Below, one piece after another: positions 12,971 through 13,164 of a stretch of DNA of 24,625 nt. The DNA is from a virus (Duplodnaviria > Heunggongvirae > Uroviricota > Caudoviricetes). The notes under the pieces are model-generated. The model was not told the origin of the DNA and ran no database searches. It worked only from the letters and a program-made list of their open reading frames with translations. Both the position numbers and the translations under genes were made by a program. Within the stretch, counting starts at the first letter, position 1. Each line of letters begins with the position of its first letter. The stretch lies in IMG/VR virus record IMGVR_UViG_2534681649_000014, one strand, 5' to 3'.

Positions 12971-13164
12971 ATATCAAAATAAGTTAATGATAAAAAACAA
13001 ATAATAAAACACAACAATGAAATATGCCCCCTTTTGTGCCCCCACTGTTTTTCTGACCAATCTATTTTCAGCCCATCAATAAATCGGAAAGTTAAATAAT
13101 TTTTAATCAGTAAGTTTGGATCCGTAGCCCGGATCCAAACCAGTGCATCTTTTATCCACATAAA

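What the first reader, a model, noticed from the sequence alone, without database searches (positions are those of the whole stretch)
13114..13140. Perfect 11-bp inverted repeat next to the island junction
GTTTGGATCCG-TAGCC-CGGATCCAAAC is a perfect palindrome with a 5-nt loop, lying between the tRNA-Leu att remnant and the crr-like iterons. It is not followed by a clean T-tract on either strand, so it is not an obvious intrinsic terminator. It could be a protein-binding site, such as an integrase arm-type or host-factor site, or a structural element of the att region.
Basis: seen in the sequence. Interest (0 to 1): 0.2.

Follow-up and report, generated by a model that had tools for sequence, protein, structure and literature searches.

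The report
Core-like palindrome in P4 attachment arm
The perfect 27-bp palindrome is a real, conserved part of the attachment site of phage P4 and its relatives. It looks like a symmetrical copy of the site's crossover core, so it is most likely an extra docking site for the integrase, not a terminator or a replication element.

Summary
The palindrome GTTTGGATCCG-TAGCC-CGGATCCAAAC is at 13114-13140 exactly as described. Chance would give about 0.05 such repeats per window. The surrounding DNA (12950-13520) is 96% identical to phage P4. P4 carries the same palindrome, with one loop difference, and it is not annotated there.

In about 65 leuX-type P4-like attachment arms from many enterobacterial genera, all but three keep this dyad. 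The consensus is GGTTWGGWTCCG-N5-CGGAWCCWAACC. The spacer is always 5 nt and its sequence is free. The dyad usually lies 68-72 bp beyond the integrase arm-type repeat pair. When cargo separates the attachment arm from the replication region crr, the dyad stays with the attachment arm.

It is not a terminator, a promoter, a known RNA or a dispersed repeat. One stem position is unpaired in more than half of the variants, which argues for a double-stranded DNA site rather than a hairpin.

A weight matrix built only from the palindromes ranks the P4 attP core second of 11,595 genome positions. It ranks leuX first among 20 distinct E. coli tRNA genes sampled.

My best reading, at about 45% confidence, is an accessory integrase site of the core type at the outer edge of attP. 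Binding itself is untested.

The parts
13113..13141 (.). Full 12-5-12 dyad (AGTTTGGATCCG-TAGCC-CGGATCCAAACC). The perfect 11-bp arms are 13114-13124 and 13130-13140, and the spacer is 13125-13129.
   Evidence: The family consensus GGTTWGGWTCCG-N5-CGGAWCCWAACC comes from 37-38 distinct variants. It is a conserved island with an unconserved spacer.
12950..12968 (-). att core remnant (the 3' end of tRNA-Leu/leuX, read on the minus strand): TGGTGCGAAGGCCGGACTC, one base shorter than the P4 core and the intact leuX gene.
   Evidence: Alignment to P4 4078-4097, annotated as the attP core. K-12 leuX comparison. ARAGORN finds no complete tRNA in the window.
12919..12936 (-). leuX terminator, host-side flank of the junction.
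   Evidence: Terminator scan. Identical flank downstream of leuX in K-12.
12980..12992 (-). IHF-consensus-like motif (TATCATTAACTTA, 8 of 9) between the core and the arm-type pair.
   Evidence: A motif at this fixed relative position occurs in 28 of 53 distinct arms. This is a consensus match only.
13023..13046 (-). Pair of integrase arm-type repeats (ATGCCCCCTTTT GTGCCCCCACTG).
   Evidence: Annotated 'attP arm sequence repeat' at P4 4151-4174. The core anchor motif starts exactly 70 nt before the pair in nearly all leuX-type arms.
13105..13117 (+). IHF-consensus-like motif (AATCAGTAAGTTT, 8 of 9) abutting the left arm of the dyad. A second one lies at 13082-13094.
   Evidence: Other lineages instead have a motif at relative position 120 on the minus strand (17 of 53 arms). 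This is a consensus match only.
13162..13462 (+). P4 crr: two 120-bp repeats (13162-13281 and 13343-13462) with TGTTCACC iterons. This is a neighbouring replication module, not part of the dyad.
   Evidence: Another 790 or so E. coli genomes share only the sequence from 13162 onward.
13507..15840 (-). P4 alpha primase-helicase gene, with its terminator at 13482-13499. Given for context.
23360..24625 (-). P4-type integrase of this prophage (Arm-DNA-bind_3, Phage_int_M and Phage_integrase domains). It is the candidate binder of the dyad.

Best explanation
The palindrome is the outermost conserved protein-binding element of the int-distal arm of the P4-type (leuX) attachment site. It is a symmetrised look-alike of the crossover core: two inverted half-sites GGTTWGGWTCCG around a fixed 5-bp spacer.

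Inferred mechanism. Two integrase protomers dock on it through their core-binding and catalytic domains, as they do on the real core. The arm-type repeat pair then sits between the real core on one side and this pseudo-core on the other, with an IHF-like motif in each interval. Integrase held on the arm repeats could therefore bridge to either dyad. The pseudo-core would help to assemble, stabilise or regulate the recombination complex.

Shown: conservation, fixed geometry, linkage to the att arm, and similarity to the core.
Inferred: integrase binding and the functional role.
For: (1) The same palindrome is in phage P4, between the annotated arm repeats and crr.

(2) About 63 of 66 leuX-type arms from GTDB genomes and IMG/VR carry the dyad. 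The 10 pattern matches (9 loci) that lack the leuX core also lack it.

(3) It is one of three conserved islands in otherwise diverged arm DNA, alongside the core and the arm pair. Its spacer is unconserved but always 5 nt.

(4) In 13 of 22 lineages whose spacer sequences are under 80% similar, the distance from the arm pair is still 68-72 bp.

(5) In L020, L077, L052 and L056, about 0.7-2 kb lies between the dyad and crr, yet the distance from the dyad to the core is kept. In E. coli the mosaic boundary with other P4-like elements falls between the dyad and crr.

(6) A 12-5-12 weight matrix built only from the palindromes ranks the attP core second of 11,595 P4 positions (8.7 bits against -0.7 for the third). 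It ranks the leuX attL core second in 26 kb of strain IHE3034. leuX is first of 20 distinct K-12 tRNA genes (11.5 against 3.5) and first in 42 kb of K-12 DNA. The ranks hold without the P4 lineage and with other pseudocounts. Over 690 kb of loci, hits cluster only at the core and the dyad.

(7) The positions that vary within the palindrome family (5 and 8) are among those at which the two natural core half-sites differ.

(8) The 11/12-5/7-11/12 geometry is that of tyrosine-recombinase core sites (established knowledge).

(9) IHF-like motifs sit at fixed positions on both sides of the arm pair.
Against: No binding data exist or could be consulted. The P4 Int and Vis footprint papers are not held.

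I noticed the similarity to the core before testing it, although the test itself is quantitative.

The core scores only 8.7-11.5 bits against 38.5 for the palindrome, so the resemblance is partial.

Related arms that share the arm-type repeat but target another tRNA (L101, L131) have no such dyad, and neither do ssrA-type arms. The element is therefore not a general requirement of this integrase family.

Three leuX-type arms lack it or have a decayed copy.

Accessory sites of the core type far out in an att arm are unusual.
Confidence: 0.45

Rival explanations
1. It is the operator-like site of a different dimeric DNA-binding protein, such as the P4 excisionase/regulator Vis, another P4 protein or a host factor. 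On this view the resemblance to the core is coincidental.
For: Dyad symmetry, a fixed spacer and a degenerate central position fit any dimeric binder. Vis is encoded in the element (17635-17901, Phage_AlpA) and is reported to bind attP DNA (PMC2603039).
Against: The matrix finds no other site in the P4 genome, including the late promoter regions that Vis regulates. From my memory of Cali et al. 2004, which I could not check, the Vis boxes lie between int and the core, on the other arm. Recombination directionality factors usually bind direct repeats (PMC7498355 abstract). A coincidence does not explain why the model picks the att core and leuX out of tens of kilobases.
Confidence: 0.2
2. It works as a folded nucleic acid: a DNA cruciform or single-strand hairpin, or an RNA hairpin acting as a transcription barrier, a processing site or a stability element at the prophage edge.
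For: The predicted hairpin is strong. Stem position 5 covaries (A-T 17, T-A 11, C-G 1) and 87% of cells are paired, more than in every shuffle.
Against: Stem position 8 is unpaired in 20 of 37 variants, and only about a third of variants are perfect palindromes. No T-tract follows it, here or in homologues, and no promoter is predicted nearby. G-T and A-C mismatches are about equally frequent (about 13 against 15 by my hand count), so neither strand is favoured as RNA. The loop length never varies. The distance to the arm repeats is constrained, which an RNA element would not need. There is no Rfam match. Symmetric half-sites also produce apparent covariation.
Confidence: 0.12
3. It is an evolutionary relic, an inverted duplication of tRNA or core sequence, with no present function.
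For: It resembles the tRNA-Leu 3' region. A few arms have lost it or let it decay (L103, L130, L132).
Against: It persists with fixed spacing across 22 lineages whose flanking DNA is randomised. The arms are conserved while the spacer is free.
Confidence: 0.05

Closest known systems
The P4 attP/attB crossover core in the 3' end of tRNA-Leu (leuX)
   Same: Same layout, [..TGGTGCCG]-AAGGC-[CGGACTCnAAnn], against [GGTTWGGWTCCG]-N5-[CGGAWCCWAACC]. It shares CCG-N5-CGG and the G at position 6 in both halves, plus GGTT in the T-arm half. The palindrome-derived matrix ranks it second in the P4 genome.
   Different: The palindrome is symmetric: both halves resemble the T-arm half. Its spacer differs from the core's and varies between lineages, so it cannot recombine with the core. 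It lies about 145 bp outside the core and is not part of a tRNA gene.
Lambda-type attP arms (arm-type Int sites interleaved with IHF bends; established knowledge)
   Same: The order core, IHF-like motif, arm-type pair, IHF-like motif, outermost conserved site resembles the lambda P arm (P1-H1-P2...). Spacing is tightly kept.
   Different: In lambda the outermost site is another arm-type site bound by the N-terminal domain of Int. Here the outermost site is unrelated to the TGCCCCC arm repeats and looks like a core.
Accessory recombinase-binding elements beside a crossover site: integron attI DR1/DR2 and the third FLP-binding element of FRT (from my own knowledge)
   Same: These are extra sites, similar to the crossover-site half-sites, that bind the recombinase but are not where the strands are exchanged.
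   Different: Those elements are single or direct repeats immediately next to the core. This one is a complete inverted pair about 145 bp away, beyond the arm-type sites.
Simple tyrosine-recombinase sites such as dif (11-6-11) and loxP (13-8-13) (established knowledge)
   Same: Inverted half-sites of 11-13 bp around a short spacer of fixed length and unconstrained sequence.
   Different: There is no evidence of strand exchange at the palindrome: no second copies or half-sites flank the cargo.

Membership tests
Intrinsic (Rho-independent) terminator | A G+C-rich stem-loop followed directly by a T/U tract | tested here: not met
   The scan does not call it, although it calls t-alpha and the leuX terminator nearby. 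Homologues have no T-tract on either side.
P4 integrase arm-type site | Matches the repeated 12-mer containing TGCCCCC that P4 annotates as 'attP arm sequence repeat' | tested here: not met
   The arm repeats are at 13023-13046 (P4 4151-4174). The dyad half-site GGTTWGGWTCCG shares no motif with them.
Tyrosine-recombinase core-type site pair | Two inverted half-sites of about 9-13 bp around a spacer of fixed length | tested here: met
   The layout is 12-5-12 (or 11-7-11) in all 37 variants, and the spacer length is invariant.
Tyrosine-recombinase core-type site pair | Half-sites resemble the cognate recombinase's real core half-sites | tested here: met
   The attP core ranks 2 of 11,595. leuX ranks first of 20 distinct tRNA genes and first of 42 kb. 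The resemblance is partial (8.7-11.5 bits against 38.5).
Tyrosine-recombinase core-type site pair | Bound by the recombinase's core-binding and catalytic domains | not testable with these tools
   This needs a gel shift or footprint. The relevant P4 papers are not held.
Tyrosine-recombinase core-type site pair | Strand cleavage and exchange within the spacer | tested here: inconclusive
   There is no genomic trace of recombination at the dyad: one copy per element and no duplicated or half sites flanking the cargo. Absence of traces does not exclude self-recombination.
P4 crr/ori replication iterons | Contains TGTTCACC-type iterons and travels with the alpha/crr module | tested here: not met
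   It contains no iteron. It stays with the att arm when cargo separates the arm from crr. Elements of other att classes share crr but not the dyad.
IHF binding site | Match to WATCARNNNNTTR | tested here: not met
   The dyad itself has no match. An 8 of 9 match overlaps only its first four bases (13105-13117) and is specific to the P4 lineage.
Known structured RNA (Rfam) | A covariance-model hit at or near the gathering score | tested here: not met
   No hit at gathering threshold. At the permissive E-value threshold the only match on the dyad is a chance hairpin match (14.9 bits against a gathering score of 230).
Dispersed palindromic repeat (REP or MITE-like) | Many copies per genome in unrelated contexts | tested here: not met
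   It is found in 271 of 5,426 E. coli genomes, with a median of one and at most two places per genome, all chromosomal.

The most novel reading that the evidence does not exclude
The palindrome is a second, fully functional substrate of the P4 integrase. It would recombine only with another copy of itself, because its spacer differs from the core's. That could resolve multimers of plasmid-state P4. Alternatively it competes with the real core for integrase held on the arm repeats, and so acts as a built-in switch that sets the direction or frequency of integration and excision.
Probability: 0.1. Interest if true: 0.6.

Novelty: new variant of a known kind. Interest (0 to 1): 0.4.

Why it matters
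P4 is the model satellite phage, and P4-type integrases move many pathogenicity and defence islands. Their att sites are nevertheless described only as a core plus arm repeats. A conserved pseudo-core at the edge of attP would add an unrecognised component to that recombination machine. It would set the true outer limit of the functional attP, which is useful for defining island boundaries and for building integration vectors. It would also give a simple handle, one 29-bp site, for testing how prophage stability and excision are tuned. If it proves inert, the result still explains the feature as a known piece of P4 sequence and not something new in this genome.

Tried and rejected
Known RNA: Rfam gave nothing at either the gathering or the permissive threshold.

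Terminator or promoter: the scans were negative.

A second palindrome family. CATTGGTATAC-GCTTAG-GTATACCAATG in ssrA-type P4-like arms first looked like an analogue. It is really the arm-type direct-repeat pair (GTATACC, 12-nt period), and its core hexamer happens to be self-complementary. It was rejected as an analogue.

Helical phasing of the distance from the arm pair to the dyad. Off-mode distances fall near ±10-12 and ±20 bp, but the Rayleigh test on distinct lengths gives only p about 0.05, and the test on all arms is dominated by the mode. This is inconclusive.

Strand-specific RNA signal: G-T and A-C mismatches are about equal.

Second copies or half-sites flanking cargo, as a trace of recombination at the dyad: none found.

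A third dyad-like hit inside the 5' coding region of int (window 24516-24544, P4 3805) scores only -0.7 and could not be separated from coding constraint.

Related arms with the same arm repeat but another tRNA core (L101, L131) were checked for a dyad that mirrors their own core. None was convincing.

GATC/Dam or SeqA site: by my hand count, 6 of 38 variants have no GATC, so it is not a defining feature.

The annotated ORF over the region (78 aa here, 111 aa in RefSeq P4) is not conserved: the longest open frame falls to 31-60 aa in most lineages.

Literature: the Int and Vis footprint papers (PubMed 16847139 and 15063119) are not in the library. The papers that are held say only that Vis binds attP DNA and that an IHF site lies in the int promoter region.

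Full report
**Observation.** The sequence GTTTGGATCCG-TAGCC-CGGATCCAAAC is at 13114-13140 as reported. The arms are 100% complementary. The pattern is unique in the window and absent from 100 shuffles. Perfect inverted repeats of at least 11 bp with a 3-8 nt loop are expected 0.05 times per window under a first-order Markov null. The window has three, at 2457, 13114 and 23324. As a single strand the sequence would fold stably: -12 kcal/mol as DNA (z about -6.8), and -19.5 and -24.5 kcal/mol for 81-nt RNA folds that include a second flanking hairpin (z about -5.3).

**Context.** Window 12950-13520 is 96% identical to phage P4 (X51522 4078-4649).
- The window holds the int-distal junction of a P4-like prophage inserted at leuX.
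- In order it contains the host-side leuX terminator (12919-12936), the core remnant (12950-12968), the pair of annotated arm-type repeats (13023-13046), the palindrome, the two crr repeats (13162-13462), the alpha terminator and the alpha gene.
- The prophage's own integrase lies at 23360-24625, and the intact tRNA must lie beyond the window end, as in strain IHE3034. ARAGORN finds no tRNA in the window.
- Left of the core is a different island with an IntB-type integrase, a type I restriction-modification system and IS elements.
- P4 itself has the same palindrome, with loop TAGCT. None of the 45 features of the P4 record covers it.

**Conservation.** I collected P4-like loci from one genome per species through the alpha protein. 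I collected more from IMG/VR through the arm-repeat pattern TGCCCCYWTTTRTGCCCCC.
- In every arm that has the leuX core, the core anchor motif starts exactly 70 nt before the arm pair.
- In all but three of about 66 such arms, a dyad of the same family lies 50-90 nt (mostly 68-72) beyond the pair.
- The ten pattern matches (nine loci) without the leuX core have no such dyad.
- Across 62 distinct arms the only conserved islands are the core, the arm pair and the two arms of the dyad. The 5-nt spacer is not conserved.
- The consensus is tCGGTTWGGWTCCG-N5-CGGAWCCWAACCgg, and the spacer length never varies.
- The intervening 70 bp falls into 22 groups that are under 80% similar to each other. Thirteen of them keep a length of 68-72.

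**Which module it belongs to.**
- In E. coli, 261 genomes share the whole arm. About 790 others share only the sequence from the first base of crr (13162) onward.
- In L020, L077, L052 and L056, 0.7-2 kb separates the dyad from crr, while the distance from the dyad to the core is unchanged.
- The dyad is therefore the outer edge of the att module and not part of the replication region.
- It occurs once per element, in 271 of 5,426 E. coli genomes, always on the chromosome.

**What it is not.**
- No terminator or promoter is predicted, and homologues have no T-tract next to it.
- There is no Rfam family.
- It has no similarity to the arm-type repeats or to the crr iterons.
- The ORF annotated across it in RefSeq is not conserved.

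**Hairpin or double-stranded site?** On 37 distinct variants, 87% of stem cells pair, and position 5 covaries (A-T 17, T-A 11, C-G 1). However, position 8 is unpaired in 20 of 37 variants, and only about a third of variants are perfect palindromes. Mismatches that would be wobble pairs on one strand are as common as those for the other strand. These points, together with the invariant spacer length and the constrained distance to the arm repeats, favour a dyad-symmetric site on double-stranded DNA. Symmetric half-sites also produce apparent covariation.

**Similarity to the core.** By eye, the half-site resembles the T-arm of tRNA-Leu and the P4 core with its flank (GTTTGAGTCCG against GTTTGGATCCG). 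I then tested this. A 12-5-12 weight matrix built only from the palindromes gives the following.
- In the P4 genome the palindrome is first, and the attP core (AGAATGGTGCCG-AAGGC-CGGACTCAAACA) is second of 11,595 positions: 8.7 bits against -0.7 for the third.
- In 26 kb of IHE3034 the second hit is the attL core inside leuX, at 11.3 bits.
- Among 20 distinct K-12 tRNA genes, leuX scores 11.5 and the next best 3.5. leuX is also the best of 42,284 positions of K-12 DNA.
- The ranks are unchanged when the P4 lineage is left out and with other pseudocounts.
- Over 65 loci (690 kb), hits cluster only at the core and at the dyad.
- Positions 5 and 8, which vary within the palindrome family, are among those at which the two natural core half-sites differ from each other.

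The T-arm half scores well for many tRNAs. The specificity comes from the second half.

**Mechanism proposed.** The geometry, inverted half-sites of 11-12 bp around a spacer of fixed length and free sequence, is that of tyrosine-recombinase core sites (established knowledge).
- I infer that two integrase protomers bind the dyad through their C-terminal domains.
- IHF-consensus-like motifs occur at fixed positions between the core and the arm pair (28 of 53 arms) and between the arm pair and the dyad (17 of 53; the P4 lineage has differently placed matches).
- The arm pair is therefore flanked by two bendable segments, one leading to the real core and one to the pseudo-core. Integrase held on the arm repeats could bridge to either.
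- This would assist assembly of the recombination complex or compete with it.
- These steps are inference. Nothing here shows binding.

**Limits.**
- I noticed the resemblance before I tested it, and it is partial.
- ssrA-type arms and arms with the same arm repeat but another tRNA core lack such a dyad, so it is a lineage-specific addition.
- I found no trace of recombination at the dyad.
- The helical-phasing analysis is only suggestive.
- The footprint literature on P4 Int and Vis is not held. My recollection that the Vis boxes lie on the int-proximal arm is unverified.

**Verdict.** The sequence itself is old P4 sequence. What appears new is its reading as a conserved, core-like accessory site. 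Interest is moderate.

Noticed in passing
window 12950-12968; also 42 of about 60 leuX-type arms (e.g. L011, L020, L038, L052, L074, L085): The core remnant at the int-distal junction reads TGGTGC-GAAGG, one C shorter than intact leuX and the P4 attP core (TGGTGCCGAAGG). The same one-base loss recurs with different host flanks and in several genera, and only 4 arms are intact. It shifts the left half-site of the core dyad and may impair excision. Alternatively, excision would leave a damaged leuX that only re-integration repairs.
   Followed up: partly
window 13152-13160: A perfect DnaA-box consensus, TTATCCACA, lies between the palindrome and crr. The columns around it are poorly conserved across the arms.
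   Followed up: partly
window 1-12827: A second island lies in tandem at the same leuX remnant. It holds an IntB-type (P4-family) integrase at 11481-12827 with its own arm repeats (TATACTCA), a type I restriction-modification system (hsdR 2849-6265, hsdM 6329-7963, hsdS 7960-9042), and IS66, IS3-family and IS1 transposases.
   Followed up: partly
window 20728-23305: Three genes (359, 177 and 343 aa) lie between psu and int, where P4 has gop, beta and cII. None has a Pfam match. They may be variable cargo.
   Followed up: no
window 23324-23356 and 2457-2485: These are the two other perfect inverted repeats of the window. AAATAAACGCCTATA-TAT-TATAGGCGTTTATTT lies between the convergent hotspot genes and int and looks like a two-way terminator. 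The one at 2457-2485 lies upstream of hsdR.
   Followed up: no
window 17291-17378 and 17486-17576: Rfam finds C4 antisense RNA (the P4 CI immunity RNA), isrK and the a1/b1 target, as expected for a P4-type immunity region.
   Followed up: no
L010, L012, L027, L034, L046, L058, L060, L073 (ssrA-type P4-like arms): The apparent palindrome CATTGGTATAC-GCTTAG-GTATACCAATG is the arm-type direct-repeat pair of that att class (GTATACC, 12-nt period). Its core hexamer is self-complementary. The same motif occurs as plain direct repeats in L051 and L053.
   Followed up: yes
window 24516-24544 (P4 3805-3833), inside the 5' coding part of int: This is the third-best match to the dyad matrix in P4 and IHE3034 (fourth in the window): TATTTGGAACCT-TTGGC-CGAAACCTCAAG, at -0.7 bits. 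It lies about 245 bp from the core on the other arm. It is weak and could not be separated from coding constraint.
   Followed up: partly
window 12967-13203 (minus strand): The 78-aa ORF annotated as a hypothetical protein in RefSeq (111 aa in P4, P4p05) runs across the core, the arm repeats, the palindrome and part of crr. It has no Pfam match and is not kept open in other lineages, so it is probably not a gene.
   Followed up: yes
relative positions 30 and 120 of the aligned arms (window 12980-12992; no counterpart at 13070-13082): IHF-consensus-like motifs recur at exactly the same offsets in many diverged lineages: one between the core and the arm pair, and one between the arm pair and the palindrome. 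The P4 lineage lacks the second and has matches at 13082-13094 and 13105-13117 instead.
   Followed up: partly
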